Shown: positions 1-62,379 of the stretch, piece after piece
Position numbering within the stretch: position 1 is the stretch's first letter
Layout of the letters: each line of letters starts with the position of its first letter
Assembly (NCBI GenBank): GCA_964453135.1
Contig: CAYVOL010000002.1
Span: 55,094-119,093 of the forward strand
Direction of reading: 5' to 3'
Origin: an uncultured Candidatus Saccharibacteria bacterium
GTDB lineage: Bacteria; Patescibacteriota; Minisyncoccia; UBA6257; UBA9933
DNA length: 64,000 nt
The notes under the pieces: model-generated
Database searches by the model: none
Told to the model about the DNA's origin: nothing
Seen by the model: only the letters and a program-made list of their open reading frames with translations
Position numbers and translations under genes: made by a program

Positions 1-1
1 G

Positions 2-1488: not shown

Positions 1489-1511
1489 AATTTAATTATA
1501 CCCAATTCCAG

Positions 1512-3376: not shown

Positions 3377-3389
3377 AAAAATTTATTTT

Positions 3390-4424: not shown

Positions 4425-4434
4425 TCAAATCAAA

Positions 4435-5556: not shown

Positions 5557-5557
5557 T

Positions 5558-7710: not shown

Positions 7711-7720
7711 CTTTAATTCT

Positions 7721-10581: not shown

Positions 10582-11474
10582 TGTTATTTTCTATGAAACA
10601 AGAAAGTTATTTAATGAAATTTTTAAGGGAATTAGGAATTGATTCGTTGGCTTGGTCCCTGCGGCGGCTCCACTGCCCTGTTAAAAAAAATGATTTAGTT
10701 TTGGAAATCGGCAGTGGCGGCAATCCTTATCCGCGGGCGAATATTCTTTGCGACGCTTATTTAGAAACTATGGAGCGTCATTTTGATCCCTTGGTACATG
10801 ACCGCCCGACGATTCTGGCTTTTACGGAAAATTTGCCCTTTAAAGATAATGTTTTTGACTTTGTAATCGCGTCACATGTTTTAGAGCATTCATCCAATCC
10901 GGATAAATTTTTAGCAGAAATACAGCGAGTCGGGAAAGCGGGCTACATAGAAACGCCAAGCGCTTTTTTTGAGAGGTTATGCCATTATCCAATGCATCGT
11001 CTTGAGATCGAAAATAAAAATAACGAATTATTAATTTATAAAAAAACGGGCCAGATTGAAGATAAATATTTAAGCAGATTATTTTTGGAGGTTAGCGCAA
11101 TTTTTTCTGAATGGGTTTCTAGTCATCCGTTTAATTTCCATGTCCGCTATTACTGGAACAAAGATATTGGCGGAATAAAATACAAGATTCTTAATCCCGG
11201 TTACAAATTTGATTGGAATGCGCCGTTGCCCCAAAAAGAATTAATTCCGCCGAAAAGCTGTAAAAATAAAATAAGAACATTTATTATTTTTTTATTGAGA
11301 GATTTTCTTTCTCAAAATAAAAGAAATGAACGCCTTGATTTGCTGGATTATCTCAAATGTCTTAAATGTGGCGGCAAAAAGTTAGAGAGGGGAGAATCGG
11401 ACGTACATTGCGTTCGATGCGATTATTCATATAAAATCGTTGATAAAAATATTATAGATTTTATTAATAATTAA
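10581..11474 (+). CDS. class I SAM methyltransferase with C-terminal Cys4 zinc-ribbon
   Basis: LEIGSGGNPYP motif I, VIASHVLEHS motif, C-terminal CLKCGG...CVRCDY. Confidence 0.65.
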   Translation: MLFSMKQESYLMKFLRELGIDSLAWSLRRLHCPVKKNDLVLEIGSGGNPYPRANILCDAYLETMERHFDPLVHDRPTILAFTENLPFKDNVFDFVIASHVLEHSSNPDKFLAEIQRVGKAGYIETPSAFFERLCHYPMHRLEIENKNNELLIYKKTGQIEDKYLSRLFLEVSAIFSEWVSSHPFNFHVRYYWNKDIGGIKYKILNPGYKFDWNAPLPQKELIPPKSCKNKIRTFIIFLLRDFLSQNKRNERLDLLDYLKCLKCGGKKLERGESDVHCVRCDYSYKIVDKNIIDFINN

Positions 11475-12508
11475 TGAGGATTATTGTTGCGGGCGACTTC
11501 TTGGCTGATATGTACGAACCGGCGTTTTATAGCGCTTTTTTGAAATTGGGGCACAATGTTTCCAAATTTTCTATCGGGGATTATTTCAAGGAAAAAAAAT
11601 TTTTTCAGAAATTACAGAATAAATTTTTATTCGGCCCTATTCTGCGAAAAATCAATAAAGATTTGATTGCTTGCGTGGAAATGGAAAAACCTGATTTAAT
11701 TTTTATTTATCGCGGGAATATGATTTTCGCGGAGACAGTTCAAGAGATTAGAGAGTCTAGCGCGACTGTTTTCGGTTATAATAATGACGATCCATTTAGC
11801 GAGAGGCATCCTTCGTATATGTGGCGGCACTGGTTTCGGGCAGTTCCTTATTACGACCATATTTTTGTTTATCGTTCTAAAAATTTGGACGATTATACAA
11901 AGATCGGTTATGGCAAAACAAGTTTGCTGATGTCTTATTATTTGGTGGAGGAAAATTTTCCCATTGTGAACTTGCCGACGGATAGATTTCAATGCGATGT
12001 TATTTTTGTAGGACATTACGAGGACGACGGTCGCGATGAATATATAGCGGCGATTATTGATGAAGGAATAAATTTTAAGCTTTACGGCCCAGAATGGCAC
12101 CGTTCAAAATATTATAATTTTTTAAAGGAGAAACTCGGGTATGAGGCAGAGCCGTTGAAAGGCGATGATTATAATTTGGCGCTCAATAGCGCGAAAATCG
12201 CACTGTGTTTTTTGTCTAAGTTGAACAACGACACCTACACCCGCCGTAATTTTGAAATTCCGGCAACGAAAACTTTTATGCTGAGCGAATATAGCGATGA
12301 TTTGAATGATTTATTCGCCGCGGGCCGCGAAGCGGACTATTTTCGCAATAAAGAAGAAATGCTGGAAAAAATAAATTATTATTTAGCTCACAAGGAGGAA
12401 AGAGAGAGGATTGCCGAGGCGGGCTACCAGAGATTACTGCAAGGCGGCCACGAGGCGCTGGACAGGGCAAAAGAAATTTTAAGGCTCTATCAAGAATTCA
12501 AAAAATGA
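11474..12508 (+). CDS. CgeB-family / DUF3880 glycosyltransferase-like protein
   Basis: DVIFVGHYEDDGRDEY...LYGPEWH...FEIPATKTFMLSEYSDDLNDLF...EEMLEKINYYLAHKEERERIAEAGY, recalled as the CgeB family signature. Confidence 0.5.
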   Translation: MRIIVAGDFLADMYEPAFYSAFLKLGHNVSKFSIGDYFKEKKFFQKLQNKFLFGPILRKINKDLIACVEMEKPDLIFIYRGNMIFAETVQEIRESSATVFGYNNDDPFSERHPSYMWRHWFRAVPYYDHIFVYRSKNLDDYTKIGYGKTSLLMSYYLVEENFPIVNLPTDRFQCDVIFVGHYEDDGRDEYIAAIIDEGINFKLYGPEWHRSKYYNFLKEKLGYEAEPLKGDDYNLALNSAKIALCFLSKLNNDTYTRRNFEIPATKTFMLSEYSDDLNDLFAAGREADYFRNKEEMLEKINYYLAHKEERERIAEAGYQRLLQGGHEALDRAKEILRLYQEFKK

Positions 12509-13695
12509 AAATTCTGCACATTATTCCATCGTATTTGCCGGCTAGATTCGCGAGCGGGCCGATTATTCCAACGCATAGTTTGAATAAAGAATTATCGAAA
12601 AATGGCGTTGAGGTTGTTGTTTATACGACTAATTTAGATGGCGACAGAATTTTAGATGCTCCCTTAAATCAAGAAATTAATCTTGACGGCGTAAAGGTTT
12701 TTTATTTTCCAATCACTTGCCGGTTTTGGCAATACTCCTGGGAGCTGCATCGCGCTTTGGCGTGCAATTTCAAAAATTTTGATTTAATTCATATCACTTC
12801 GGTTTTTTTATCGGCATCTACTCTTGGCGCTTACTACGCGAAAAAATCAGGCAAGCCTTATATCATTTCTCCGCACGGCAGTTTGATGAAGGAGCCGTTA
12901 GGCCGCGGATATTTGAAAAAGAATATTTACCTCTCGCTTCTTGAAAAAAGAAATTTAGAAAATGCGGCGGCAGTCCATTTTTTAAACGATAAAGAAGAAA
13001 GCGATTATTTGACGGCGGGCTTGTCGCTCAAAAAAGAGATTATTGTCCCGAATGGAATTGATGCGGATAAATTTCAAAATGTTTCGCGGCGGATTTCTTT
13101 CCGGAAAAAATTCAGCATTCCATCCGAATGCAAAATCATCCTTTTTTTAGGACGTCTGCATCCGATAAAGGGGTTGGATACTTTGATTTCGGCTTTTGCC
13201 GAGGTTATTAAGAAAGAACCGGATTCTTTTTTGGTTTTAGCAGGTCCGGATGAAAACGATTACGGCGAAAATCTTAAATCTCAAATCTCGAAATTTAACA
13301 TTGGCGGCAAGGTTGTTTTTACGGGGATGATTGTTGGAGAAGAAAAAAATGCGGCTTTGCGGGAGAGTGATGTTTTTGTTTTGCCGTCTTACACCGAGGC
13401 GATGAGCGTGGCTGTGCTGGAGGCGATGTATTTCGGCTTGCCGGCTATCGCGACGAAGAATGTCGGCAATGCTTCGGATATTTTACGGGTTGATGCCGGC
13501 ATTGTCGTGGAAAAAACGGAGTCTGCCGTGGCGGAGGCGATTTTGAAAGTTTTAAGAGATCCGGCGCTCGCGAAAAAGATGGGCGAAAACGGTCGGCGAT
13601 TGGTGGCTCAGGAATTTTCCGGTGAAAAGATGGCAAAAAGATGGATAGAAGAATATGAAAAGATAATAAAAGAATGGAGCAAGCAGAATTTTTAA
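12505..13695 (+). CDS. family 4 (GT-B, retaining) glycosyltransferase
   Basis: MKILHIIPSYLP... N-terminus and C-terminal EAMSVAVLEAMYFGLPAIATKNVG EX7E motif. Confidence 0.85.
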   Translation: MKILHIIPSYLPARFASGPIIPTHSLNKELSKNGVEVVVYTTNLDGDRILDAPLNQEINLDGVKVFYFPITCRFWQYSWELHRALACNFKNFDLIHITSVFLSASTLGAYYAKKSGKPYIISPHGSLMKEPLGRGYLKKNIYLSLLEKRNLENAAAVHFLNDKEESDYLTAGLSLKKEIIVPNGIDADKFQNVSRRISFRKKFSIPSECKIILFLGRLHPIKGLDTLISAFAEVIKKEPDSFLVLAGPDENDYGENLKSQISKFNIGGKVVFTGMIVGEEKNAALRESDVFVLPSYTEAMSVAVLEAMYFGLPAIATKNVGNASDILRVDAGIVVEKTESAVAEAILKVLRDPALAKKMGENGRRLVAQEFSGEKMAKRWIEEYEKIIKEWSKQNF

Positions 13696-13764
13696 GCCAA
13701 TTATCGCTGTTAGCTGGCGCCGGTTTTTAGAAAAATTTTATCTTGCGCTTGTTAAGGTGGCGCT

Positions 13765-14478
13765 ATGTTGAGCGGCGATGATTGCGCAAAGATTTTTATT
13801 ATTGTTTCCATCTTGGCTATTTTAGCAGTGTCGGATATTTTGCTTTCCGCTAAAGCGGCCTATCATTTTTCCAATTATCGCGGCCAGCCGCCTATACATA
13901 TTTACGGCGCGGCAAGTAAAACTTCTTTGGATAAACACTTTGCCAGTAAATACGGGGCAGTTTTCTTTGCTTCCTCTGGTGATAATGGCTATGGCGCTTC
14001 TTGGCCCGCTTCTTCTCCTAATGTTATTGCCGTTGGCGGCACATCGCTCGAATTAAATAAAAATAGATCTTTTACAAAAGAGATTGCTTGGAGCGGGAGC
14101 GGAGGGGGTGTCAGCGCTTATGAGAAGTCGCCGGATTTTCAAGTTGGCTACGATATCCCCAAAAGTCATAACAAGCGCGCTATTCCGGATGTTTCTTACA
14201 ACGCGGATCCGAAGTCGGGATTTTCTGTTGTTCATAATGGCGTTTGGCGGATTGTCGGCGGCACTTCTGCCGGGGCGCCGCAGTGGGCGGCTATCGCGGC
14301 ATTAGGAAGCGGAATTTCCAATGTCCGATTTTACGCTGATAAATCAGGCGAGAACAACGGAAAATATTTCCGCGACATTAAAAGCGGCTCCAACGGCGAT
14401 TGCGGATATTATTGCGAGGCGCGCAAACATTATGACTATATTACTGGCTTGGGTAGCCCGCTGACAGCGAATTTTTAA
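13765..14478 (+). CDS. sedolisin (S53)-like peptidase, C-terminal portion only, with N-terminal signal anchor (possible gene remnant)
   Basis: Oxyanion-Asp motif ASSGDNG and Ser motif IVGGTSAGAPQWAAI are present. No region corresponding to the catalytic Glu/Asp. Hydrophobic N-terminus IFIIVSILAILAV. Confidence 0.4.
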   Translation: MLSGDDCAKIFIIVSILAILAVSDILLSAKAAYHFSNYRGQPPIHIYGAASKTSLDKHFASKYGAVFFASSGDNGYGASWPASSPNVIAVGGTSLELNKNRSFTKEIAWSGSGGGVSAYEKSPDFQVGYDIPKSHNKRAIPDVSYNADPKSGFSVVHNGVWRIVGGTSAGAPQWAAIAALGSGISNVRFYADKSGENNGKYFRDIKSGSNGDCGYYCEARKHYDYITGLGSPLTANF

Positions 14479-14542
14479 CTTTTGGCCGCGTATTTTTGGT
14501 GCGCGGTTGTTTTACTGCCTTTTTATTTTATAATGAAGCATT

Positions 14543-15406
14543 ATGGCAAAAGCGCCGGTAAGCGTTGTTGTTTTAACTTATAACGAAGAAATCCACATTG
14601 GCAGATTGTTGAAAAATATCTCTGATTGGGCGGATGAGATTTTTATCGCGGATTCTTTTTCTACGGATAAAACTTTGGAAATCGCGCGGTCATACGGGGT
14701 AAAAATAGTCCAGCATAAATTTGAAAATCAGGCGTCTCAATTTAATTGGGCACTGGACAATTTGGAAATTAAAAATGACTGGATTTTGCGGTTGGACGCG
14801 GACGAATATCTGATCGAAGACTTGAAAAAAGAAATCGGGACAATTTTGCCGAAAACTCTCGAAGGTGTCGGCGGTTTTTACATCAAGAGGCGTGTTTATT
14901 TTATGGGCCGCTGGATAAGGCACGGCGCGTATTATCCGGTTTGGTTTTTGAGGTTATTCAGAAAAGGCGGGGCGCGTTCGGAACAAAGGGCAATGGACGA
15001 GCATATTGTTTTACTTGAAGGCAAGGCGGAAAAGTTAAAGAATGATTTTGTGGATGAAAATTTGAAAGGATTAAGAGACTGGGTTGATAAGCATAATAAT
15101 TACGCGAGTCGCGAAGCGGAAGAGGCGCTAAAATTTAAAAGCCATAAGTCGGAAACTGATTTAGGCGGTCAAGCCGGGAGAAAGCGCTGGCTGAAAAATA
15201 ATTTTTATTACCGGCTGCCGCTTTTCTTGCGCGCCTGTCTATATTTTTGCTATCGTTATTTCATTCGTCTGGGATTTTTGGATAGCCAAGAAGGAATGAT
15301 ATTTCATTTTCTTCATGCTTTTTGGTATAGATTTTTGGTGGACGCGAAAATTTATGAAGCGCGGATGGTCGCGAAAAACAATTATACTGGACGAAAAAAA
15401 TATTGA
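14543..15406 (+). CDS. family 2 glycosyltransferase
   Basis: VSVVVLTYNEEIHIGRLLKNI...IFIADSFSTDKTLEIA GT-A N-terminus. Confidence 0.75.
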   Translation: MAKAPVSVVVLTYNEEIHIGRLLKNISDWADEIFIADSFSTDKTLEIARSYGVKIVQHKFENQASQFNWALDNLEIKNDWILRLDADEYLIEDLKKEIGTILPKTLEGVGGFYIKRRVYFMGRWIRHGAYYPVWFLRLFRKGGARSEQRAMDEHIVLLEGKAEKLKNDFVDENLKGLRDWVDKHNNYASREAEEALKFKSHKSETDLGGQAGRKRWLKNNFYYRLPLFLRACLYFCYRYFIRLGFLDSQEGMIFHFLHAFWYRFLVDAKIYEARMVAKNNYTGRKKY

Positions 15407-15436
15407 AGAATCCGCAAAATAGCGTATAATTTCTAT

Positions 15437-16477
15437 ATGGACGCGAAAAACGCTGTTAAAAACAAGACAATTTTAATAACCGGCGGGACCGGTTCTTTTG
15501 GCAATGCGGTGGTCGAAAAACTTCTGCCACTGAATCCTAAAAGGATAGTTATTTTCAGCCGCGACGAGAAGAAGCAATTTGATATGGGTAATAAATTTAA
15601 CAGCGATAAATTGGAATTTTTTATCGGCGACGTGCGGGATAGAGATTCGGCGCAGCATGCGATGTATGACGTTGATTACGTTTTCCATGCGGCGGCTTTG
15701 AAGCAGGTGCCGAATTGCGAATTTTTCCCCGTCGATGCCGTTAAGACAAATTCATTGGGCGCGCATAATGTTATTGACGCGGCTATAGAAAACGGCGCAA
15801 AAAGAGTTGTGGTTTTGAGCACTGACAAAGCGGTTCATCCGATTAACGCGATGGGTATGAGCAAGGCGTTGATGGAAAAAATAATGGTTGCCGCTTCGCG
15901 CGAAAAAAGAGGGAAAACAATTTTATGCGGCACCCGTTATGGCAACGTAATGTACACGCGCGGCTCGGTGCTTCCTTACTTTATCGGTTTAATGAAAGCG
16001 GGAAAACCGCTTACGGTTACGGATAAAAATATGACCAGGTTTTTAATGCCGATAGATCATTCGGTTGATTTGGTTTTATATGCTTTAACTAGCGGAGAAA
16101 ATGGCAATATTTATGTCAGGAAATCGCCAGCTAGCACAGTCGGCGATTTGGCAGAGGCGTTGGTTGAAATTTTTAATTACAGAGGCGGCATTAAAGAAAT
16201 CGGCGTTCGGCCAGGAGAAAAAGGTCATGAGGAATTGATTTCCCGAGAAGAAGCTGTGCGGACACGAGATAAAAATGTTTATTTTCAAATTAATCCGGAA
16301 TCACGGGAGATAGATTATCGAAATTATTATTTTGAGGGCATAAAAAGTGGACATGTTTTGTTGTCAGAAGGATATACTTCAGCTAATACCCAAAGATTGT
16401 CAATAAAAGAAATTAAGAAATTGCTGTTGTCTTTAAATGAAGTCAAAGAAGAACTTAAAAATTGGCATTACCGGTAG
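15437..16477 (+). CDS. fnlA: UDP-N-acetylglucosamine 4,6-dehydratase/5-epimerase (CapE/FnlA type)
   Basis: Near-canonical CapE motifs ILITGGTGSFGNAV, IFSRDEKKQ, FIGDVRD, VFHAAALKQVPNCEFFP, STDKAVHPINAMGMSKA, GTRYGNVM. Confidence 0.85.
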   Translation: MDAKNAVKNKTILITGGTGSFGNAVVEKLLPLNPKRIVIFSRDEKKQFDMGNKFNSDKLEFFIGDVRDRDSAQHAMYDVDYVFHAAALKQVPNCEFFPVDAVKTNSLGAHNVIDAAIENGAKRVVVLSTDKAVHPINAMGMSKALMEKIMVAASREKRGKTILCGTRYGNVMYTRGSVLPYFIGLMKAGKPLTVTDKNMTRFLMPIDHSVDLVLYALTSGENGNIYVRKSPASTVGDLAEALVEIFNYRGGIKEIGVRPGEKGHEELISREEAVRTRDKNVYFQINPESREIDYRNYYFEGIKSGHVLLSEGYTSANTQRLSIKEIKKLLLSLNEVKEELKNWHYR

Positions 16478-17201
16478 CCGCGGATTTATCGGCAGACACA
16501 TCGCGGCGGCTTTGAGTAGAAAAGGCGCAAAACTTTCTTTTTTCGATAGGCCTCAAAACGATTTATTAGAAAGCGTCTCGGCCGCTCTGAAAAAATTCGT
16601 TAAAAATAACGATGTCATAATTCATGCGGCGGCGGTTAATCGCGGCAACAATACGGAAATCATTGCTGGTAGCATAGCGGCAACTTACAATTTAATCGCC
16701 GCGATGGAAAAATATAAGAGCCGCGCGAAATTAATTTTTTTGTCATCAATTCAGGCGGAAACAGATACTTTATATGGCCAAAGCAAAAGATTAACGGAAA
16801 TAATCCTGGAGGATTTTTCCAGAAAGAATAATTCGGCAGTTTCAATCTTTCGCTTGGCCAATGTTTTCGGCGAAGGATGCAGGCCATTTTATAATTCTGT
16901 GGTGGCGACATTTTGCCATCAAGCGGCGCATGGAGAAAAATTAACAGTACATCCGCAAAGCAAAAATAAAAAAATCAATTTGATTTATGTCGGCGACGCG
17001 GCGCGGATTATCGCCGATGAAGCGCATAAGGAACGAGCGCAAAAATTTTCTTTCAAAAGAGTGGATTCAAAAAATATAATTTCTATCGGCGATTTGGCAG
17101 AAGCTGTGGAATCATTCCGAAAGAGCGCACCGAAGAATTTAAAATCTAAATTTTATAGAGATTTGTATACAACGTGTTTGTCATATAAAAATGGAAAATA
17201 A
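16437..17201 (+). CDS. fnlB: CapF/FnlB N-terminal SDR reductase domain (separate ORF)
   Basis: GITGSRGFIGRHI Rossmann motif, NSVVATFC, LYTTCLSY matching CapF residues about 1-250. Ends at the inter-domain linker. Confidence 0.7.
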   Translation: MKSKKNLKIGITGSRGFIGRHIAAALSRKGAKLSFFDRPQNDLLESVSAALKKFVKNNDVIIHAAAVNRGNNTEIIAGSIAATYNLIAAMEKYKSRAKLIFLSSIQAETDTLYGQSKRLTEIILEDFSRKNNSAVSIFRLANVFGEGCRPFYNSVVATFCHQAAHGEKLTVHPQSKNKKINLIYVGDAARIIADEAHKERAQKFSFKRVDSKNIISIGDLAEAVESFRKSAPKNLKSKFYRDLYTTCLSYKNGK

Positions 17202-17562
17202 AAAATTAGAAATGAAAAGCGATGAGCGGGGAGACTTCGTGGAAGTTTTTAAAATCCCCGGATTTGGACAGGTTTCATATTCTACGACAAATCCAGGAGT
17301 TATTCGCGGTAATCATTATCACGCGCGGAAAAAGGAAATTTTTTGCGTTATTGAAGGAGAGGCGAAGGTGCGGCAGAGGGATATCAAAACCGGAGAAGTT
17401 GAGGAGAAAATTGTTTCCGGCGCCGCGCCGGAGCTGGTTGAAATGAAACCGAATTGGACGCATAATATACAGAATATCGGCAATAAAGAAATGAAATTAT
17501 TAATTTGGATAAGCGAGGTTTATAATCCCGCGGACACGGATACTTTTTATGAAGAAGTCTGA
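17191..17562 (+). CDS. CapF/FnlB C-terminal cupin (epimerase) domain (separate ORF)
   Basis: SDERGDFVEVFKIPGFGQVSYSTTNPGVIRGNHYHARKKEIFCV...PNWTHNIQNIG...YNPADTDTFYEEV aligns with the CapF C-terminal cupin. 11-nt overlap with the previous ORF in a different frame. Confidence 0.7.
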   Translation: MENKKLEMKSDERGDFVEVFKIPGFGQVSYSTTNPGVIRGNHYHARKKEIFCVIEGEAKVRQRDIKTGEVEEKIVSGAAPELVEMKPNWTHNIQNIGNKEMKLLIWISEVYNPADTDTFYEEV

Positions 17563-18688
17563 CGTCGACAAACTTAAAGTGATGACGATTTTCGGGACGC
17601 GGCCGGAAATTATCCGGCTTTCGCGGATTTTTGCAATTTTAGATAAATACGTTAATCATATAATGGTCCATACGGGCCAAAGCTTTGATTACGAGATGAA
17701 CCAAGTGTTTCTCGATGATTTGAGAGTCAGGAAGCCGGATTATTTTTTAGAAGTGAAATCAGAAACGTTAGGCGGACAAATTGCGAAGATTATTGAGCGG
17801 AGCGAAGAGGTTTTGAAAAAAGAAATGCCGGACGCTCTTTTGATTTTGGGCGATACCAACAGCGCTTTGGCGGCGATAGTCGCCAAAAGGATGAAAATCC
17901 CGATTTTCCATATGGAGGCCGGAAACCGTTCTTTTGACGAAAATGTGCCGGAAGAGACCAATCGCCGCATTGTGGACCATATTAGCGATATCAATTTGCC
18001 TTACAGCGAGAATGCCCGATTGTATTTGATACGTGAAGGGGTCCATCCGGGGACCATTTACGTAACCGGTTCGCCGATGGCGGAAATCTGGGAGGCATAC
18101 AAAAAAAGCATTCTAAAATCAAATGCGCTTAAGAAATTTAATTTGAAAAAGGGCCAGTATTTTGTAGCCAGCATTCATCGGGAGGAAAACGTGGAAAGCA
18201 AAGAGGCGTTGACGAAATTAATAGACTCTTTGAATGCCATCGCCGAAATATATAAAATGCCTGTTGCGGTAAGCACTCATCCTCGGACAGCCAATCGTCT
18301 TGCGGAGCATAAGTTCAGGGTTGATAAGTTAATTAATTTTCATAAGCCGATGGGTTATTTTGATTATAACAATCTTCAGCTGAACGCTTTTTGCGTTTTG
18401 TCTGATAGCGGAACGATTTTGGAAGAGTCGTCTATTATGGGATTTCCGGCCGTACAAGCGAGAGTCAGTTCTGAGCGGCCAGAAGGTTTTGACGAGGGGG
18501 TTTTAATTTTGTCGGGTTTGGACAGAGATATTATTTTGCAGGCCATTGAAATTACGGTTAAGCAATTGGCAGGAGGCGAAAAATTCAACGTCCCGCGCGC
18601 TTATCGGGATATAAACGCTTCCGGCAAGGTTTTGCGTTTAATTGTCGGTTTAGCGAAAATCGTGAAAAAGCGGCGCGCTTTGACGTAG
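17549..18688 (+). CDS. fnlC: UDP-N-acetylglucosamine 2-epimerase (non-hydrolysing; CapG/FnlC/WecB type)
   Basis: MTIFGTRPEIIRL, HTGQSFDYEM, GDTNSALAAIVAKRMKIPIFHMEAGNRSFD, typical of WecB. Confidence 0.85.
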   Translation: MKKSDVDKLKVMTIFGTRPEIIRLSRIFAILDKYVNHIMVHTGQSFDYEMNQVFLDDLRVRKPDYFLEVKSETLGGQIAKIIERSEEVLKKEMPDALLILGDTNSALAAIVAKRMKIPIFHMEAGNRSFDENVPEETNRRIVDHISDINLPYSENARLYLIREGVHPGTIYVTGSPMAEIWEAYKKSILKSNALKKFNLKKGQYFVASIHREENVESKEALTKLIDSLNAIAEIYKMPVAVSTHPRTANRLAEHKFRVDKLINFHKPMGYFDYNNLQLNAFCVLSDSGTILEESSIMGFPAVQARVSSERPEGFDEGVLILSGLDRDIILQAIEITVKQLAGGEKFNVPRAYRDINASGKVLRLIVGLAKIVKKRRALT

Positions 18689-18694
18689 GCAGGT

Positions 18695-19936
18695 ATGAAA
18701 AATATTTTAATTGTGGCGGATGTCTATCCACCAGAGATTTCTTCAGCCGCGAATTTAATGCGGGAACTTTCTGGTGGTCTTAAAAATCGGGGGTACAATG
18801 TCTGGGTTTTAACTTCTTACCCGAAACATTATTTGCCCCAAGAATTACGGGGCAATAATTTTGAGATTTTTTCCGAAGAAAACGGCGTAAAAATTATCAG
18901 GGTAAAGACCTTGCCTCTTCATAAGGTCAATTTCATCATTCGCGGTATTTCTCAGTTGCTTTTACCTTTTATTTTTTTTCGTCAGGCGAGAAAATTTATT
19001 GGTGTAAAAATAGACGCAGTGATAGTTTACAGCCCGCCGCTGCCCTTGGCTTTAATTGGCGGAATGATAAAAAAACGCTACGGGGCCAAATTCATTTTGA
19101 ATATCCAGGACATTTTTCCTCAGAATGCCATTGACCTCGGAGTTTTAAGAAAATGGCCGCATTGGCTCGCGATTTGGATTTTTGAACAGATTGAGAAGAG
19201 GGCTTATCAAGAGGCCGACAAAATTTCTTTTCATTCAGAGGGCGGCAGGAACTTTTTGATTGAAAAAAAACGCGTGCCCGAAGAAAAGATCTTCGTTGTT
19301 TATAATTGGATTGACCTGGCGCCGTATCAGAACTTAACTAAGAAAATTTCTTTCAGAAAGCGATGGGGGCTGGAGAATAAGTTTATCATTTTATTTGCGG
19401 GGATTATGGGGCCAGCGCAAGGAATGGAATTTATCGCGGATGTTGCCGAAAAAATATCCGACATAAAAAATGTCGTTTTTCTTTTGGTAGGCGACGGAAC
19501 GGAAAAAGAGAAAGTTGATAAATTAATCAAAGAGCGTGGATTAAAAAACATTATCATTAAGTCGTCTGTTTCCATGGACGAGTATCCTTATTTAGTTAAA
19601 GAAGCTAATGTGGGGTTGGTTTGTTTAAGCGCGCGAAATAAAACCCCTTTTGTTCCGGGAAAATTTTTGGGATATCTGGCGGCAGGTAAGCCTATTCTGG
19701 CTTTTCTTAATAAAGAGAGCGATGGGTTTGCCCTAGTTGAGAAGGCGCATTGCGGCTATGCGATAGTGGCGGGCGACCTTGAGCGCGCGGAGAATTTAAT
19801 AAGAAAAACACTGCAGGGGAATAAGGCCGTCCTTAAGGAGTTGGGAGAAAACGGGATGAGATACGCTGAAGATAATTTGAGCCTGGAGGCGGCTTTGGAT
19901 AAATTTGAAAGATTGATTTCTCCCGATGATTTTTAA
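18695..19936 (+). CDS. family 4 glycosyltransferase (WbuB-like, candidate L-FucNAc transferase)
   Basis: GT-B fold. N-terminus ILIVADVYPPEISSAANLMREL. Position immediately after fnlABC mirrors wbuB in O-antigen loci. Confidence 0.7.
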   Translation: MKNILIVADVYPPEISSAANLMRELSGGLKNRGYNVWVLTSYPKHYLPQELRGNNFEIFSEENGVKIIRVKTLPLHKVNFIIRGISQLLLPFIFFRQARKFIGVKIDAVIVYSPPLPLALIGGMIKKRYGAKFILNIQDIFPQNAIDLGVLRKWPHWLAIWIFEQIEKRAYQEADKISFHSEGGRNFLIEKKRVPEEKIFVVYNWIDLAPYQNLTKKISFRKRWGLENKFIILFAGIMGPAQGMEFIADVAEKISDIKNVVFLLVGDGTEKEKVDKLIKERGLKNIIIKSSVSMDEYPYLVKEANVGLVCLSARNKTPFVPGKFLGYLAAGKPILAFLNKESDGFALVEKAHCGYAIVAGDLERAENLIRKTLQGNKAVLKELGENGMRYAEDNLSLEAALDKFERLISPDDF

Positions 19937-19956
19937 AATGGGTGTTTTTGCACTTT

Positions 19957-20400
19957 TTACTTTATTCTGGAAGCCAGCGCTTTTTTGATGGTTTCCAGGA
20001 ATTGCTCGGTGCCGATGGTGGTTTTGACGGCGTAGTCGTAAGCGCCGATGTCTTTGGCTTTTTGGATGGTGTCAGTGTCGTTCATATTGGAGAATACGAT
20101 AATGGGAATATCTTTATATTTTTCATTGGCCTTGGTTTCTTTCAGGAAAGAAAAGCCCATTTTTTCGGACAAATCTTCTTTATTGTCGGAGACTGATTTG
20201 TCGTAAGGCAGGATAAGGTCCAAGACGATTAAGTCTGGAGTGTTTTTCTCGAGAAGTTCAAAGGCGGATTTTAAATCAAGAGCATTGAGTATTTCGTAAT
20301 CGTAATCTTTATCGGCGGAAAAAAGGTCGCTGAACAGAGAACACAACAAACTCTCGTCTTCTATAAACAATATTTTGGCATTTCTCGCGTTGTCTGCCAT
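19957..20400 (-). CDS. single-domain response regulator (REC only)
   Basis: KILFIEDE...DLIVLDLILPYDK with phospho-acceptor Asp context. 147 aa, no output domain. Confidence 0.75.
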   Translation of the reverse strand: MADNARNAKILFIEDESLLCSLFSDLFSADKDYDYEILNALDLKSAFELLEKNTPDLIVLDLILPYDKSVSDNKEDLSEKMGFSFLKETKANEKYKDIPIIVFSNMNDTDTIQKAKDIGAYDYAVKTTIGTEQFLETIKKALASRIK

Positions 20401-35406: not shown

Positions 35407-35601
35407 TCACTTCTTGACTTTGAGCTTCTTTTCTTTAACAGTCCTTCCCTGGTATTTTCCGCAGTTGGCGCAGTAGCGGTGAGGAAGAATAGGATGTCCG
35501 CAATGAGGGCAGACAAAAATTTTAGCCGGGTTAAGGGCTAAGTGAGAACGACGCCGTCCGACTTTTGATTTAGAATGATGTTTTACGGGAACGCCACCCA
35601 T
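35407..35601 (-). CDS. rpmF: 50S ribosomal protein L32 (zinc-ribbon form)
   Basis: HHSKSKVGRRRSH...CPHCGHPILPHRYCANCGKYQG matches the L32 pattern. Confidence 0.8.
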   Translation of the reverse strand: MGGVPVKHHSKSKVGRRRSHLALNPAKIFVCPHCGHPILPHRYCANCGKYQGRTVKEKKLKVKK

Positions 35602-35789: not shown

Positions 35790-35883
35790 GTCATTCTGAA
35801 TCCGCCAGCTGGCGGAGAAGAATCTTGTTAGATCCTTCGCCCCGCTAAGCGGGGCTCAGGATGACAAAAACGTTCAGGATGAC
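35790..35883. repeat. MITE-like intergenic repeat, copy A (module 1 hairpin TCCGCC-n-GGCGGA, module 2 hairpin CCCCGC-n-GCGGGG, GTCATTCTGAA / CTCAGGATGAC termini)
   Basis: gtcattctgaatccgccagctggcggagaagaatcttgttagatccttcgccccgctaagcggggctcaggatgac. Homologous to copies at 53026-53070, 57963-58015 (inverted) and 62237-62379. Confidence 0.7.
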
Positions 35884-38736: not shown

Positions 38737-38822
38737 GCGCAGGTGGCAGAGCGGTCAATTGCATCAGACTGTAAATCTGACGCCTTTATGGCTACGGGGG
38801 TTCGAATCCCTCCCTGCGCACC
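38737..38822 (+). tRNA. tRNA-Tyr (anticodon GTA)
   Basis: Acceptor GCGCAGG/CCTGCGC, anticodon arm TCAGA-CTGTAAA-TCTGA, long variable arm, T-arm GGGGGTTCGAATCCCTC. Confidence 0.8.
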
Positions 38823-38849
38823 GCATAAACTGCGTAGAGAAAATTAAGC

Positions 38850-38923
38850 GCCACCTTAGCTCAGCGGCAGAGCAACTCTTTTGTAAAGAGAAGGTCCCGA
38901 GTTCAAATCTCGGAGGTGGCTCA
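38850..38923 (+). tRNA. tRNA-Thr (anticodon TGT)
   Basis: Acceptor GCCACCT/AGGTGGC, D-arm TAGCTCAGCGGCAGAGC, anticodon loop TTTGTAA, T-arm CCGAGTTCAAATCTCGG. Confidence 0.75.
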
Positions 38924-39104
38924 AAAATTGTTTTCGCCGCAATAACCCATATTTGTTGCAATTACCGGAAAAATCGTGTATAAAATTATAGCCTACGCGT
39001 AAGAAAAATGGCGGGCTACAGTTTTTACCGACGTAGCTCATCGGCAGATTTGTCTGTTGCGCTTCGCCGTAGCGAATGAAGGCGGAGCAATTTCCTGTCT
39101 ACAT

Positions 39105-39177
39105 GCCGAGATAGCTCAGTCGGCAGAGCGCATCCATGGTAAGGATGAGGTCCCGGGTTCGATCCCCGGTCTCGGCT
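39105..39177 (+). tRNA. tRNA-Thr (anticodon GGT)
   Basis: Acceptor GCCGAGA/TCTCGGC, D-arm TAGCTCAGTCGGCAGAGC, anticodon arm CATCC-ATGGTAA-GGATG, T-arm CCGGGTTCGATCCCCGG. Confidence 0.8.
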
Positions 39178-39289
39178 CGGCATTTTGGCGGGTATGCATG
39201 GAAAGGAGCAAGAGTAATGCAGGCTAATTAAAATACTAAAAAAACTTAAAGGCCGAAATCTTTGATTAAGAATTTAAGCCTTTGGTTAT

Positions 39290-39475
39290 TTGGTTTTATC
39301 AATCGTGGCTAAGTCAAAATTAAAAGAACAACTCACCCGAATGCGCTGCGCCGTTTGCAAACGGGTTAATTACCATACTAAGAAAAACCGCAAGAAAGTG
39401 GAAAAGAAACTGGAGTTTCGCAAGTATTGCCGCTGGTGCCGCAAGCACACCGCGCATAAAGAAGCCAAAAAGTAA
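39290..39475 (+). CDS. rpmG: 50S ribosomal protein L33 (zinc-ribbon form)
   Basis: CAVCKRVNYHTKKNRKK...KLEFRKYCRWCRKHTAHKEAKK matches the L33 pattern. Confidence 0.8.
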   Translation: MVLSIVAKSKLKEQLTRMRCAVCKRVNYHTKKNRKKVEKKLEFRKYCRWCRKHTAHKEAKK

Positions 39476-39579
39476 ATTGAAATAAAAAACAGCGTGGAAA
39501 ATTATTTCTACGCTTAATCTTGACGGCGAAATTTTTTTGACGCAGAGATAAATTCTAACACGCGCCTTTCACTACAAAA

Positions 39580-39653
39580 GGGGACATAGGCTCAACGGCA
39601 AACTGCCTCTCTCCAAAAGAGGATTTCTCCGTTCGAATCGGAGTGTCCCCGCA
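39580..39653 (+). tRNA. tRNA-Trp (anticodon CCA)
   Basis: Acceptor GGGGACA/TGTCCCC, anticodon arm CCTCT-CTCCAAA-AGAGG, T-arm CTCCGTTCGAATCGGAG. D-arm is atypical. Confidence 0.7.
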
Positions 39654-47723: not shown

Positions 47724-48107
47724 GGGGAGCGTCAGGCTTCGACAGAAGACTGCGCCCATAAAATTGCAGGCTGAGGACGGCCCGTTATCCTCAACAATCT
47801 TTCGGGCCAAAAAACAACTGCCAACAAAACATTGGCTCCTGCTTTCGCTTTTGCCTAAGCGGGTTTACCCGCTAAAGCTTTAGCGGCGGCGGGCATCGCT
47901 TGATTGACGCTTGATAAATCAAAAGCGGTGTTATAAATTCAAGATATATTCTTTGTTTGCCGAAGGCAAGGAACTAATTAATTTTCGGCAGGGAATTTCA
48001 AAGATTTTGCCGGATAGTACTTGAAGTTCCTAACTTAATCCGGATAAGCCTGTAGTGATTTTAGGGAAAGTCTTTTGGACAAGGGTTCAATTCCCTTCGC
48101 TTCCACC
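47724..48107 (+). ncRNA. ssrA: tmRNA (ssrA)
   Basis: Starts 3 nt after the smpB stop with GGGGAGCGTCAGGCTTCGACAG. tRNA-like 3' end AGGGTTCAATTCCCT + CGCTTCC-A-CC, acceptor pairing GGGAGCG/CGCTTCC. Internal tag frame gcc aac aaa aca ttg gct cct gct ttc gct ttt gcc taa = ANKTLAPAFAFA*. Confidence 0.75.
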
Positions 48108-48132
48108 GCGACAACTTTTATATTAAGCAGAC

Positions 48133-53025: not shown

Positions 53026-53070
53026 GTCATCCTGAGTCCCCCGCCGTGGCGGGGCGGGGCTCAGAATGAC
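53026..53070. repeat. MITE-like intergenic repeat, copy B (compact form)
   Basis: gtcatcctgagtcccccgccgtggcggggcggggctcagaatgac. 11-nt terminal inverted repeats around a CCCCGCC/GGCGGGG hairpin. Confidence 0.7.
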
Positions 53071-53207
53071 CAAGGCAGGATGTTTTGCCGAGGTTTTTTT
53101 TGAATGGCGTTAGTTGTGGTTGACGGAATTCCTAATTTAATTTACTTTTTAGGCAGAGATTATTTCAGCATTTCAGATGTTTAACAATTTCATAGAAGGA
53201 GGAAAGC

Positions 53208-57962: not shown

Positions 57963-58015
57963 GTCATCCTGAGGAGCCCCGCTGTGGCGGGGCGACGAAG
58001 GATCTCGCGAGATTC
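57963..58015. repeat. MITE-like intergenic repeat, copy C (module 2, inverted orientation)
   Basis: gtcatcctgaggagccccgctgtggcggggcgacgaaggatctcgcgagattc. Its reverse complement aligns base-for-base with copy A 35818-35865. Confidence 0.7.
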
Positions 58016-58117
58016 TTTTCCTCTGATTGGCCTGGCGATAGAATGATTCGCCTTTATTTTTATTTGACTAAACGGCGATGATTTGGTAGTCTTACGAAAT
58101 AATTTTTATCAGGAACT

Positions 58118-58572: not shown

Positions 58573-59241
58573 ATGAGTAAGAGGGGGGCCAAGCCAAAGG
58601 GGAAAGTTAAAATAAAGTGGTCGTCAAAATTTGCTTACGCGATTGGGCTCTTGGTTACCGACGGCAGTTTATCGAATGATGGGCGACATATTAATTTTAC
58701 CTCAAAAGATAGGGAGTTAGTTATTTTACTAAAAGATTCTTTAATGATCGATAATCACATTGGTAAAAAAGCGAGAGTGAGCGAGCAGGAGAAAAAATAT
58801 TTTGTTATTCAATTTGGAGATGTTTTGTTTTATTCATTTTTATGCTCTATCGGCTTGATGCCATGTAAATCCAAGAAGTTAACTTCAATCAATATTCCAG
58901 ATAAATATTTTTTCGATTTTTTGCGAGGTCATTTTGATGGCGACGGAACTTTTTATTCGTATTGGGATCCGCGTTGGAAATCAAGTTTTATGTTCTATAC
59001 TGTTTTTGTTTCGGCGAGCGAAAAACATATTCAATGGCTTCAAAATAAAATATACGGATTTTTAAAAATTAAAGGGCACATCAACCATAATTTTAAGAAA
59101 ACGGTTTATGAGTTGAAATACGCCAAAAAAGAATCATTGAGTTTATTGACTAAAATGTATTATGATAACAAAGTATCTTGTTTATCAAGGAAGAAGGAAA
59201 AAATAAAAAAAGCTTTAAAAATTGATGAGTATCATCAATAG
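58573..59241 (+). CDS. free-standing LAGLIDADG-family homing endonuclease (two motifs)
   Basis: AYAIGLLVTDGSL and FDFLRGHFDGDGTF. AT-rich compared with neighbours. Ends 4 nt before tRNA-Leu. Confidence 0.7.
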   Translation: MSKRGAKPKGKVKIKWSSKFAYAIGLLVTDGSLSNDGRHINFTSKDRELVILLKDSLMIDNHIGKKARVSEQEKKYFVIQFGDVLFYSFLCSIGLMPCKSKKLTSINIPDKYFFDFLRGHFDGDGTFYSYWDPRWKSSFMFYTVFVSASEKHIQWLQNKIYGFLKIKGHINHNFKKTVYELKYAKKESLSLLTKMYYDNKVSCLSRKKEKIKKALKIDEYHQ

Positions 59242-59245
59242 GTTA

Positions 59246-59332
59246 GCCCGGGTGTCGTAATTGGTAGCCGAGCATGCTTGAGGTGCATGTGGCCGCAAGG
59301 CCGTGGAGGTTCGAGTCCTCTCCCGGGCACCA
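59246..59332 (+). tRNA. tRNA-Leu (anticodon GAG), CCA encoded
   Basis: Acceptor GCCCGGG/CCCGGGC, anticodon arm CATGC-TTGAGGT-GCATG, long variable arm GGCCGCAAGGCCG, T-arm GGAGGTTCGAGTCCTCT, 3' ACCA. Confidence 0.8.
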
Positions 59333-62236: not shown

Positions 62237-62379
62237 GTCATTCTGAACGCACAGCAGTGTCATTCCGAATCCGCCGAAGGCGGATGAGGAATCTCAAGAA
62301 AGACGCGTCGCTTGTCGGTAAGTTTTTCGAAATGGCGCAAGATTCCTCGCCCCCCGCCGTGGCGGGGGCTCGGAATGAC
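62237..62379. repeat. MITE-like intergenic repeat, copy D (expanded: duplicated module 1 + spacer + module 2)
   Basis: gtcattctgaacgcacagcagtgtcattccgaatccgccgaaggcggatgaggaatctcaag ... gattcctcgccccccgccgtggcgggggctcggaatgac. Confidence 0.7.

What the first reader, a model, noticed from the sequence alone, without database searches (positions are those of the whole stretch)
35790..35883. Four-copy family of MITE-like intergenic elements with GTCATYCTGAR terminal inverted repeats and GC-rich internal hairpins
The window is AT-rich, yet four intergenic sites carry the same GC-rich composite element: 35790-35883, 53026-53070, 57963-58015 (inverted) and 62237-62379. Conserved parts are an 11-nt terminal inverted repeat (gtcatYctgaR ... 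YtcRgaatgac), a first hairpin TCCGCC-nnn-GGCGGA followed by GAATCT, and a second hairpin CCCCGC-nnnn-GCGGGG. Copy C reverse-complemented matches copy A 35818-35865 almost base for base. Copy D carries a duplicated module 1 and a 45-nt spacer. Copy B is a minimal TIR-plus-hairpin form. All copies sit between convergent or tandem gene ends, never in coding sequence. This pattern fits a miniature mobile or REP-like element, or a family of structured small RNAs or terminators. It has no obvious T-tail, so it is not a classical intrinsic terminator.
Basis: seen in the sequence. Interest (0 to 1): 0.6.

Follow-up and report, generated by a model that had tools for sequence, protein, structure and literature searches.

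The report
Hairpin repeats for Ssn DNA nucleases
The four intergenic elements are real copies of a known, very widespread family of bacterial DNA hairpin repeats (CGTC-tagged REPs, also called Ssn-related motifs) that small GIY-YIG nucleases recognise on single-stranded DNA; here they occur as a longer variant in a probable candidate-phyla-radiation genome, so the finding is correct but largely explained already.

Summary
GTCATYCYGAR occurs 9 times in the window (0.15 expected), only at the four named sites.

The repeating unit is not a terminal inverted repeat. It is an oriented hairpin: YGTC, ATYCY, GA, a variable GC-rich stem-loop, GA, RGRAT, then C. The lower stem covaries: it is Watson-Crick in 138 of 152 distinct units from other contigs (47 expected).

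Copies A, C and D are pairs of inverted units with the GTC tags outside. B is a minimal fused form.

The anatomy matches the CGTC-tagged REP superfamily (Di Nocera 2013). It also matches the NTS / Ssn-related motifs of Chenal 2025, which Ssn GIY-YIG nucleases bind and cut as single-stranded DNA.

In other genomes this same unit type brackets ssn genes 40-52% identical to Neisseria SsnA. Two observations suggest such pairs derive from unit-ssn-unit cassettes: a Sinorhizobium inverted pair holds an ssn remnant, and an Azospirillum cassette is absent from close relatives.

Nothing supports an RNA or terminator role. Units show no orientation bias, there is no Rfam match, and SsnA ignores RNA.

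Caveats: no ssn gene lies in this window, and the published SRM search string misses this variant.

Verdict: new member of a known kind, moderate-low interest.

The parts
35790..35825 (+). Copy A, left unit: GTC tag, lower stem ATTCT/AGAAT, GA(A)/GA internal loop, upper stem TCCGCC-agct-GGCGGA, tail CT
   Evidence: Unit pattern match. The ssDNA fold gives a 5-bp lower stem, an internal loop and a 6-bp upper stem, with the GTC tag unpaired.
35826..35829 (.). Copy A, 4-nt spacer (tgtt) between the two inverted units
   Evidence: Read directly from the sequence.
35830..35865 (-). Copy A, right unit (inverted): GTCATCCTGAG-CCCCGC-tta-GCGGGG-CGAAGGATCT, lower stem ATCCT/AGGAT
   Evidence: Together with the left unit it forms a tag-outside (HH) dimer, which folds as a cruciform or cloverleaf (z = -7.4 as DNA).
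35873..35883 (-). Orphan head GTCATCCTGAA, 18 nt outside copy A's right unit
   Evidence: The same orphan-head arrangement, 18-27 nt from a full unit, recurs in unrelated contigs.
53026..53070 (.). Copy B, minimal fused form: head GTCATCCTGAG (+) and head GTCATTCTGAG (-) flank one GC-rich hairpin, with no inner GARGRATCT tails
   Evidence: The same minimal form occurs in a Chloroflexota MAG (L187). It lies 67 nt after the dcd stop codon and just before a terminator-like hairpin at 53074-53089.
57963..58005 (+). Copy C, left unit: GTCATCCTGAG-GAGCCCCGC-tgtg-GCGGGGCGAC-GAAGGATCT
   Evidence: It starts 8 nt after the stop codon of the RluA-family pseudouridine synthase gene ('rluD' elsewhere in this report; ORF ends 57955).
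58010..58047 (-). Copy C, decayed right unit, homologous to copy A's module 1 (AGATTCTT...GGCGAT AGAATGAT)
   Evidence: Global alignment of copy C with reverse-complemented copy A.
62237..62247 (+). Orphan head GTCATTCTGAA, 22 nt upstream of copy D's left unit
62259..62294 (+). Copy D, left unit: GTCATTCCGAA-TCCGCC-gaag-GGCGGA-TGAGGAATCT, lower stem ATTCC/GGAAT
62295..62339 (.). Copy D, 45-nt spacer between the inverted units
   Evidence: It has no detectable similarity to ssn genes.
62340..62379 (-). Copy D, right unit (inverted): GTCATTCCGAG-CCCCCGCC-acg-GCGGGGGG-CGAGGAATCT

Best explanation
The four sites carry oriented DNA hairpin repeats of the CGTC-tagged REP superfamily, also described as NTS / Ssn-related motifs (SRM).

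Each unit has, in order:
- an unpaired 5' tag YGTC
- a 5-bp lower stem ATYCY/RGRAT
- a GA/GA internal loop
- a variable GC-rich upper stem-loop
- a conserved C right after the palindrome

Proposed mechanism. When the DNA is single-stranded (replication, transformation, conjugation or phage DNA), a unit folds. It would then be bound by a small single-domain GIY-YIG nuclease of the Ssn family (cd10448), which cuts the ssDNA a few nucleotides upstream of the tag. This activity has been shown for Neisseria and Wolbachia Ssn proteins on their own motifs. It is inferred here.

A, C and D are inverted pairs with tags outside, so each strand offers one cleavable unit. I infer that such pairs are non-autonomous derivatives of unit-ssn-unit cassettes, in the way that REPINs relate to RAYT genes. 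I also infer that they arrived in this genome, probably a Patescibacteria/CPR lineage, by lineage-specific spread. The mechanism of spread itself is not known. GIY-YIG enzymes hydrolyse DNA and do not rejoin it, so homing or repair-mediated copying is more plausible than classical transposition.
For: Anatomy:
- 9 heads and 5 full units occur against about 0 expected.
- Each unit folds as the same two-tier ssDNA hairpin with the tag left unpaired.

Covariation:
- All 5 window units pair ATTCT/AGAAT, ATCCT/AGGAT or ATTCC/GGAAT.
- 138 of 152 distinct units from IMG/VR contigs are Watson-Crick at both variable positions. Permutation gives a mean of 47 and a maximum of 70.

Family features:
- Position -1 is T 78% / C 18% in IMG/VR units and T or C in 65 of 70 tail-positive genome hits.
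- The stem starts with AT.
- Tag-outside dimers outnumber tag-inside dimers 40 to 2.
- These match the description of CGTC REPs: tag often TGTC, AT-first stems, a 3-nt tail, mostly HH dimers (PMC3733652).

Determinants defined experimentally for SsnA are GTC before the palindrome (needed for cutting) and C right after it (needed for binding) (PMC11893778). Here GTC is invariant. C follows the palindrome in 60 of 70 genome hits whose tail was not part of the search pattern.

Link to Ssn:
- Units of exactly this type bracket GIY-YIG ORFs in L166, L127, L123, L134 and L289, with flanking dimers in L282 and clusters in L274 and L288.
- 5 of 6 loci chosen by protein carry intact heads within 400 nt of the ORF. 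The sixth (L264) has only a decayed unit downstream.
- These proteins are 40-52% identical to the 94-aa N. gonorrhoeae SsnA.
- GIY-YIG ties as the most frequent Pfam family among the 150 ORFs nearest to units, and no transposase family recurs.

Derivation and mobility:
- In S. meliloti an inverted dimer holds a 3' ssn remnant that is about 94% identical to the adjacent full copy.
- The dimer-ssn-dimer cassette in the A. lipoferum 4B sufB-sufC spacer is absent from four relatives with 90-96% identical flanks.
- The closest relative of the window (RluD 69% identical) keeps the rplS promoter but has no element there.
- Relatives at 60% identity or less have 0-1 heads per 20 kb.
Against: - No ssn homolog or remnant lies in the 64-kb window. 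The rest of the source genome could not be read, so a cognate enzyme in this organism is unproven.
- The published degenerate SRM search string does not match any window unit. The GA/GA loop and long upper stem are not in the biochemically tested set.
- No insertion polymorphism was seen for the window copies themselves. The Logan contigs L121/L122 of the same organism show the same gene spacing.
- The association analysis rests on a few dozen loci with crude ORF calling.
- Ssn function outside Neisseria is unknown even in the literature.
Confidence: 0.75

Rival explanations
1. They are classical REP/REPIN elements mobilised by a RAYT (a Y1 HUH tyrosine transposase of the IS200/IS605 type).
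For: The inverted doublets of hairpins with an unpaired tag look like REPINs. RAYT genes are usually single-copy, so one could lie outside the window (PMC3116915 and PMC3733652 as listed).
Against: - The tag is YGTC, not GTAG.
- Di Nocera et al. found no tyrosine transposase flanked by CGTC repeats.
- The ORFs bracketed by units in the loci examined were GIY-YIG nucleases or ordinary genes, never a Y1 transposase.
- No transposase family recurred among 150 neighbouring ORFs. That output lists only the top 25 families, so a single Y1 hit cannot be excluded.
Confidence: 0.07
2. They act at the RNA level as transcription terminators, mRNA 3'-end stabilisers or a family of structured small RNAs.
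For: - B, C and D lie just downstream of plus-strand genes.
- The folds are stable (z = -2.6 to -7.6 as RNA).
- REPs in other bacteria can stabilise transcripts (stated in PMC3733652).
Against: - There is no T-tail. B and D sit next to separate terminator-like hairpins with T-runs.
- Copy A lies between divergent gene starts.
- Singleton units elsewhere show no strand bias relative to flanking genes (29:33), yet the unpaired tag is strand-specific.
- Non-Watson-Crick exceptions in the lower stem favour neither strand (about 11 C.A against 5 T.G by my tally from the pair counts).
- No Rfam family matches.
- SsnA does not bind RNA.
- A secondary effect on transcripts is not excluded.
Confidence: 0.1
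3. They are MITEs derived from a DDE-type insertion sequence, with the 11-mers as terminal inverted repeats and a target-site duplication.
Against: - No direct repeats flank the copies.
- Single units without a partner are common elsewhere.
- The covariation is within each unit, between head and inner tail, not between the two ends.
- The inner GARGRATCT tails and orphan heads have no place in a TIR model.
- The coding relatives carry a GIY-YIG nuclease, not a DDE transposase.
Confidence: 0.03
4. The units are pre-existing host REPs that ssn genes merely target. In this view ssn is a homing parasite of the spacer of inverted dimers, so the dimers are not derivatives of ssn cassettes.
For: The unit-ORF-unit architecture fits equally well with an ORF inserted into a dimer. 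Units vastly outnumber ssn genes. Window dimers show no ssn remnant.
Against: - The S. meliloti dimer with an ssn 3' remnant shows that deletion from a full cassette does occur.
- In A. lipoferum the whole dimer-ssn-dimer block is absent from relatives, not just the ORF.
- Neither observation excludes the reverse process.
Confidence: 0.2

Closest known systems
NTS / Ssn-related motifs (SRM), recognised by Ssn GIY-YIG ssDNA nucleases (Chenal et al. 2025, Nat Commun 16:2388, PMC11893778)
   Same: - An oriented hairpin repeat with an HGTC tag followed by AT.
- A C immediately after the palindrome.
- Within the 20-50 nt size range stated for SRMs.
- Intergenic and clustered.
- Motif-ssn-motif architecture: units of the window's type bracket ssn homologs that are 40-52% identical to Neisseria SsnA.
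   Different: - The stem is bipartite: a 5-bp lower stem, a GA/GA internal loop, then a variable GC-rich upper stem-loop.
- Units are 36-43 nt long.
- None matches the published degenerate search string.
- No cognate ssn gene is seen in this window.
- The host is probably Patescibacteria, a group not mentioned in that paper.
- Cleavage of this variant is untested.
CGTC-tagged REP superfamily, families CGTC-1 to CGTC-4, including Neisseria dRS3 and Rickettsia RPE-4/-6 (Di Nocera et al. 2013, BMC Genomics 14:522, PMC3733652)
   Same: - An unpaired CGTC tag, often TGTC.
- A stem that begins with AT.
- A short unpaired tail.
- Predominance of dimers with tags outside (HH).
- Mostly extragenic location.
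- No associated transposase.
- Peptides encoded by intragenic copies there (VIPAKAGI, VIPWLDHGI, VILDGRNIEF) imply the same GTCAT head.
   Different: - The described families have continuous 8-9 bp stems, 4-5 nt loops and a CCA tail.
- Here the tail is CT(C), the stem is interrupted by a GA/GA loop, and the apical hairpin varies between copies.
- That paper reports head-to-tail (HT) arrangements as negligible. In the loci I examined orphan heads and tandem head arrays are common (46 HT against 40 HH).
REPIN/RAYT systems (GTAG-tagged REP doublets and their Y1 transposase; Bertels and Rainey 2011)
   Same: They work alike in outline. Both are inverted doublets of tagged hairpins that act as ssDNA structures. 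Both are dispersed in intergenic DNA, and the related coding gene is itself flanked by the repeats.
   Different: The tag differs (YGTC against GTAG). The enzyme superfamily differs (a GIY-YIG hydrolase against an HUH/Y1 transesterase). So the chemistry of any mobilisation must differ too.

Membership tests
CGTC-tagged REP superfamily (Di Nocera 2013) | Unpaired CGTC (or TGTC/CCTC) tetranucleotide at one end of the hairpin | tested here: met
   Six of the 9 heads in the window are preceded by T or C, giving TGTC or CGTC. Position -1 is T 78% / C 18% in 170 units and T or C in 65 of 70 genome hits. The tag is unpaired in ssDNA folds.
CGTC-tagged REP superfamily (Di Nocera 2013) | Stem begins with complementary A-T residues in the first and second positions | tested here: met
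   All five window units have AT... / ...AT lower stems. For the wider sample this feature was part of the search pattern, so only the window copies count as a test.
CGTC-tagged REP superfamily (Di Nocera 2013) | Continuous 8-9 bp stem, 4-5 nt loop, 3-nt tail fitting CCA | tested here: not met
   The units have a 5-bp lower stem, a GA/GA (or GAA/GA) internal loop and a 6-8 bp upper stem with 3-4 nt loops. The tail is CT(C). This makes them a variant within the superfamily, not a member of families CGTC-1 to -4 as described.
CGTC-tagged REP superfamily (Di Nocera 2013) | Dimers predominantly head-to-head (tags outside); tail-to-tail rare | tested here: met
   Copies A, C and D are tag-outside dimers. 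In 120 other contigs the count is HH 40 against TT 2. HT (orphan-head) arrangements are common there (46), unlike the published description.
Ssn-related motif (SRM/NTS; Chenal 2025) | Match to the published degenerate motif HGTCWYN(0-2)YYVSBRHN(0-5)WNVSBRGN(0-2)RNCYNB | tested here: not met
   The window gives 0 matches on either strand. The Neisseria and Azospirillum units match as positive controls. The failure is due to unit length and the GA loop, not to the tag or tail.
Ssn-related motif (SRM/NTS; Chenal 2025) | [quoted passage not shown] | tested here: met
   GTC is invariant in all 9 window heads. C follows the palindrome in all 5 window units and in 60 of 70 genome hits where the tail was not part of the pattern.
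Ssn-related motif (SRM/NTS; Chenal 2025) | Physical association with an ssn (cd10448 GIY-YIG, about 95 aa) gene, typically motif-ssn-motif | tested here: inconclusive
   Met for the unit type in other genomes: L166, L127, L123, L134, L289, L282, L274 and L288. Those proteins are 40-52% identical to SsnA. Not met in this window, which has no ssn homolog or remnant.
Ssn-related motif (SRM/NTS; Chenal 2025) | Strand-specific binding and cleavage of the motif as ssDNA by the cognate Ssn; no activity on dsDNA or RNA | not testable with these tools
   This needs nuclease and gel-shift assays with a cognate protein.
REPIN/RAYT | GTAG tag and a RAYT (Y1 transposase) gene flanked by the repeats | tested here: not met
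   The tag is YGTC. No Y1 transposase was found among unit-flanked ORFs or recurrent neighbours. The whole source genome was not available.
Rfam structured RNA families | A covariance-model match at gathering or a permissive threshold | tested here: not met
   Only tmRNA and tRNAs reach gathering score in the window. Nothing credible appears at E<=10 around copy A.

The most novel reading that the evidence does not exclude
The GA-loop, long-hairpin units define a distinct and very widespread specificity class of Ssn motifs. The class is found from Patescibacteria to Acidobacteriota and in phage genomes, and the published SRM search string misses it.

On this reading, the ORF-less inverted dimers, as in this window, are non-autonomous deletion derivatives of unit-ssn-unit selfish cassettes. 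The long-'orphan' CGTC REP superfamily would then be a second system analogous to REPIN/RAYT, driven by a GIY-YIG ssDNA nuclease instead of a Y1 transposase.

Its presence in a reduced CPR genome rich in pilin-like genes might tie it to the handling of incoming ssDNA.
Probability: 0.4. Interest if true: 0.6.

Novelty: new member of a known kind. Interest (0 to 1): 0.33.

Why it matters
For genome annotation, these sites should be labelled as CGTC-type REP / Ssn-related hairpin repeats. They should not be labelled as MITEs, small RNAs or terminators.

More broadly, three points are useful to people who study Ssn nucleases:

- The variant seen here is abundant across many phyla, yet the published SRM search pattern does not detect it. 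Current counts of Ssn motifs, and of ssn genes 'without' motifs, are therefore probably underestimates.
- The bipartite stem with a GA/GA loop suggests a separate recognition class. This matters for the proposed use of Ssn/motif pairs as ssDNA tools.
- The Sinorhizobium remnant-containing dimer and the Azospirillum presence/absence polymorphism are concrete cases. They could be used to test whether Ssn cassettes are mobile and generate REPIN-like dimers.

Tried and rejected
- **Rfam.** Scans at gathering threshold (whole window) and at E<=10 (copy A region) gave nothing relevant.
- **Hammerhead ribozyme.** I considered a hammerhead-like reading (GUC ... CUGA ... GAA). The core lacks the UGA of CUGAUGA, and Rfam gives no ribozyme hit, so I rejected it.
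- **Literature search by sequence strings.** It returned only primer coincidences.
- **Literature searches for COG2827/UPF0213/YhbQ and for GIY-YIG plus hairpin or selfish.** These found nothing useful. The decisive paper appeared only when GIY-YIG was combined with dRS3.
- **Empty-site test for the window copies.**
  - The metagenome scan with RluD found no relative above 60% identity.
  - The protein database gave one relative at 69%, too distant to align beyond the rplS promoter.
  - Logan contigs of the same organism show the same gene spacing.
- **Source organism.** The NCBI contig could not be retrieved, and the cluster look-up gave no names.
- **C-terminal peptide signature of read-through into units.** This was uninformative because most top homologs end before the unit.
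- **Ssn homologs in viral contigs.** Only three distant hits were found.
- **Genome-wide scan.** I counted only hits with an independent complementary tail.
- **Intragenic fraction.** The figure from my crude ORF calling is unreliable and is not used.

Full report

Yes. GTCATYCYGAR occurs 9 times in the window against 0.15 expected, and no shuffle reaches 9. Every match lies in the four named sites. Allowing one mismatch adds only about the chance number of extra hits.

Reading the sites shows that the 11-mer is not the end of a single element. It is the 5' part of an oriented unit: GTC-ATYCY-GAR-[GC-rich hairpin]-(Y)GA-RGRAT-CT. This full unit occurs five times against 0 expected.

- Copies A and D are two units in inverted orientation with the GTC ends outside. 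Their spacers are 4 nt and 45 nt.
- Copy C has the same layout, but its second unit has decayed. It aligns along its whole length with reverse-complemented copy A and so extends to about 58047.
- Copy B is a fused minimal form: two heads around one hairpin. The same form occurs in a Chloroflexota MAG (L187).
- A and D each carry one extra orphan head, 18 and 22 nt outside a full unit.

**2. Structure and covariation.**

As ssDNA, each unit folds into a 5-bp lower stem, a GA/GA internal loop (GAA/GA in A-left) and a 6-8 bp GC-rich upper stem. The tag and tail stay unpaired. The inverted pairs can also fold as a cloverleaf or cruciform.

The lower stem covaries. The five window units use ATTCT/AGAAT, ATCCT/AGGAT or ATTCC/GGAAT.

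Of 152 distinct units found there, 138 are Watson-Crick at both variable positions. Permutation gives a mean of 47 and a maximum of 70. In copy A the two units have different lower stems. The pairing that selection preserves is therefore within a unit, not between the two ends.

**3. Context in the window.**

- B lies 67 nt after dcd and just before a terminator-like hairpin.
- C starts 8 nt after the stop of the RluA-family pseudouridine synthase gene (called rluD here) and precedes rplS.
- D follows an ORF and a terminator-like hairpin and precedes pilin-like genes.
- A lies between the divergent starts of rpmF (a 64-aa ORF at 35407-35601, minus strand) and ruvB, 57 nt upstream of the ruvB ATG.

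The organism is probably a member of the Patescibacteria. The best named relatives of its RluD are Patescibacteria group, Wolfebacteria and Paceibacterota proteins at 55-61% identity. This is an inference from source names only.

**4. Distribution.**

Its pattern alone would be expected about 100 times by chance in 596 Gb. I therefore counted only hits that carry the exactly complementary tail, which was not part of the pattern.

Of 126 hits, 70 pass this filter, where chance would give about 1%. They come from Omnitrophota, Acidobacteriota, Bacteroidota, Ignavibacteria, Chloroflexota, Planctomycetota, several Proteobacteria classes, Armatimonadota, KSB1 and several CPR groups.

Relatives of the window's organism at 60% RluD identity or less carry 0-1 heads per 20 kb. 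The closest relative found (69% identity) conserves the rplS promoter but has no element between rluD and rplS. The distribution is therefore patchy and lineage-specific.

**5. RNA or DNA?**

- Singleton units in tandem intergenic regions are sense in 29 cases and antisense in 33.
- No Rfam family matches.
- There is no T-tail.
- Copy A is upstream of genes on both sides.

These points argue against a strand-specific RNA function.

**6. What is known.**

Di Nocera et al. 2013 (PMC3733652) defined CGTC-tagged REPs by these features:

- an unpaired CGTC tag, often TGTC
- stems starting with AT
- a 3-nt tail
- mostly dimers with tags outside
- presence in Proteobacteria, Chlorobi, Bacteroidetes, Spirochaetes and Thermotogae
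- no dedicated transposase

The peptides they list for intragenic copies imply GTCAT heads. The window units share the tag, the AT start and the dimer type. They differ in their interrupted stem and in their tail.

**7. The partner protein.**

I looked for ORFs bracketed by units and found a 113-aa GIY-YIG ORF in L166. It lies exactly between a forward unit and an inverted unit. The same architecture occurs in Omnitrophota (L127), Gracilibacteria (L123) and Bacteroidales (L134). These four proteins are 55-63% identical to one another across phyla.

I then chose loci by protein instead of by repeat. Five of the six carry intact heads within 400 nt of the ORF: L274, L282, L287, L288 and L289. 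The sixth, L264, has only a decayed unit downstream.

A tblastn search of plasmid and chromid records found homologs in Neisseria, Azospirillum lipoferum 4B, Novosphingobium aromaticivorans, Sinorhizobium, Sphingobium and others. These are the classical CGTC-REP hosts, and in each of the four I inspected the gene is flanked by that species' own CGTC REPs.

A literature search combining GIY-YIG with dRS3 then showed that this link was published in 2025. Chenal et al. (PMC11893778) describe Ssn, a family of single-domain GIY-YIG (cd10448) nucleases, and report the following:

- Ssn proteins bind oriented hairpin repeats (NTS in Neisseria, SRM in general) only as ssDNA.
- They cut just upstream of the motif.
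- GTC before the palindrome is needed for cutting, and the C just after it is needed for binding.
- They do not act on dsDNA or RNA.
- The genes typically show NTS-ssnA-NTS architecture.

The N. gonorrhoeae ORF I recovered is 94 aa long, as stated for SsnA. The proteins bracketed by the window's unit type are 40-52% identical to it.

In my data GTC is invariant. C follows the palindrome in 60 of 70 independent hits.

**8. What is different here.**

The published degenerate SRM string matches the Neisseria and Azospirillum units. It matches none of the window units, nor the short GTCATCCTGAGCGAAGCGAAGGATCT type, and it gives zero hits in the window. The window therefore carries a longer variant with a GA/GA loop, which lies outside the published search motif.

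No ssn gene or remnant lies in the window. A cognate enzyme in this organism is therefore inferred, not shown.

**9. Origin of the inverted dimers.**

Two observations from other genomes bear on this:

- In S. meliloti a dimer next to a full unit-ssn-unit copy has a spacer that is the 3' end of the ssn ORF. It is about 94% identical to the full copy over 124 nt. This is an internal-deletion derivative.
- In A. lipoferum 4B a dimer-ssn-dimer block of about 560 nt sits between sufB and sufC. It is absent from A. ramasamyi, A. oryzae, strain B510 and A. brasilense, whose flanks are 90-96% identical.

Both fit cassettes that move and decay into ORF-less dimers. Neither shows the mechanism, and the reverse process (ssn inserting into existing dimers) is not excluded.

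**10. Verdict.**

The finding is a true repeat family and the 'REP-like' reading is right. The family and its partner enzyme are already described. This is a new member, with a variant stem architecture, in a probable CPR genome.

- Confidence that these are CGTC-REP / Ssn-motif family members: about 0.85.
- Confidence in the full mechanism as stated for this organism: about 0.75 or lower.

Noticed in passing
L086 2286-2400 (-), L038 1268-1370, L063 3791-3920 and 5534-5620 (-); window 35873-35883 and 62237-62247: Orphan heads (GTCATYCYGAR without a body) sit 18-27 nt upstream of full units. Sometimes they form tandem arrays of 22-27 nt periods. In 120 contigs, same-strand head pairs (46) are as common as tag-outside dimers (40). 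The 2013 description calls head-to-tail arrangements negligible. This may record repeated events at the cleavage side of the unit.
   Followed up: partly
L293 (S. meliloti record CP090106.1, labelled pSymB in PLSDB) 1162-1317 against 1445-1820: An inverted dimer of CGTC-3 REPs has a spacer that is the 3' end of the neighbouring ssn (GIY-YIG) ORF. It is about 94% identical to the full copy over 124 nt, so it is an internal-deletion derivative of a unit-ssn-unit cassette.
   Followed up: yes
L291 (A. lipoferum 4B AZO_p3) 1391-1900 against L294, L295, L296: A dimer-ssn-dimer block of about 560 nt lies inside the suf operon, between sufB and sufC. It is absent from four related Azospirillum replicons whose flanks are 90-96% identical. 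The exact junctions could not be defined because the upstream spacer differs.
   Followed up: yes
L035 3859-5470; L063 189-1992 and 3814-4799: Units and dimers of this family lie between phage structural genes (capsid, SPP1-type portal, SU10-type adaptor) in IMG/VR contigs. Phage genomes therefore carry Ssn-type motifs. Whether this exposes them to Ssn nucleases or helps spread the motifs is open.
   Followed up: partly
L134 about 6300-7140 (minus strand): A stretch of at least 46 nt of flank plus the head (tgcgaaacgctcctccttccttctccccaataattaaaaaaacactGTCATTCCGA) is repeated on both sides of a unit-ssn-unit cassette in a Bacteroidales MAG. This is a long direct duplication, as expected from repair-mediated copying or a tandem duplication.
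   Followed up: no
L274 2100-3660; L288 whole locus: Some genomes hold very dense arrays around ssn: blocks of three tandem units with a 77-nt period, duplicated as about 500-nt blocks (L274), and 25 heads in 6.3 kb (L288). These resemble BIME or NIME arrays.
   Followed up: no
L123 about 6560-6600: The unit downstream of the Gracilibacteria ssn gene uses a GTCAC head with lower stem ACTCT/AGAGT. Covariation therefore extends to a position I had treated as fixed, and the family is broader than the search pattern used.
   Followed up: no
window 58573-59241 and 59246-59332: A 222-aa ORF with weak LAGLIDADG-like matches (PF14528, E = 8e-6) ends 5 nt before a tRNA-Leu(GAG) gene. It could be a homing-endonuclease relative or a WhiA-like protein.
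   Followed up: no
window 35407-35601 (-): A 64-aa ORF with a zinc-ribbon sequence typical of ribosomal protein L32 (rpmF), with a good -35/-10 match at 35705-35677. It redefines the context of copy A as a divergent promoter region.
   Followed up: partly
window 47725-48108; 38737-39652: A tmRNA gene (tag ANKTLAPAFAFA) and a cluster of tRNA-Tyr, Thr, Thr and Trp genes. These are ordinary features and are not linked to the repeats.
   Followed up: no
window 1-20000: About 20 consecutive plus-strand ORFs with strongly positive GC skew (0.13-0.21). All nine repeat heads lie in the second half of the window (35.8-62.4 kb).
   Followed up: no
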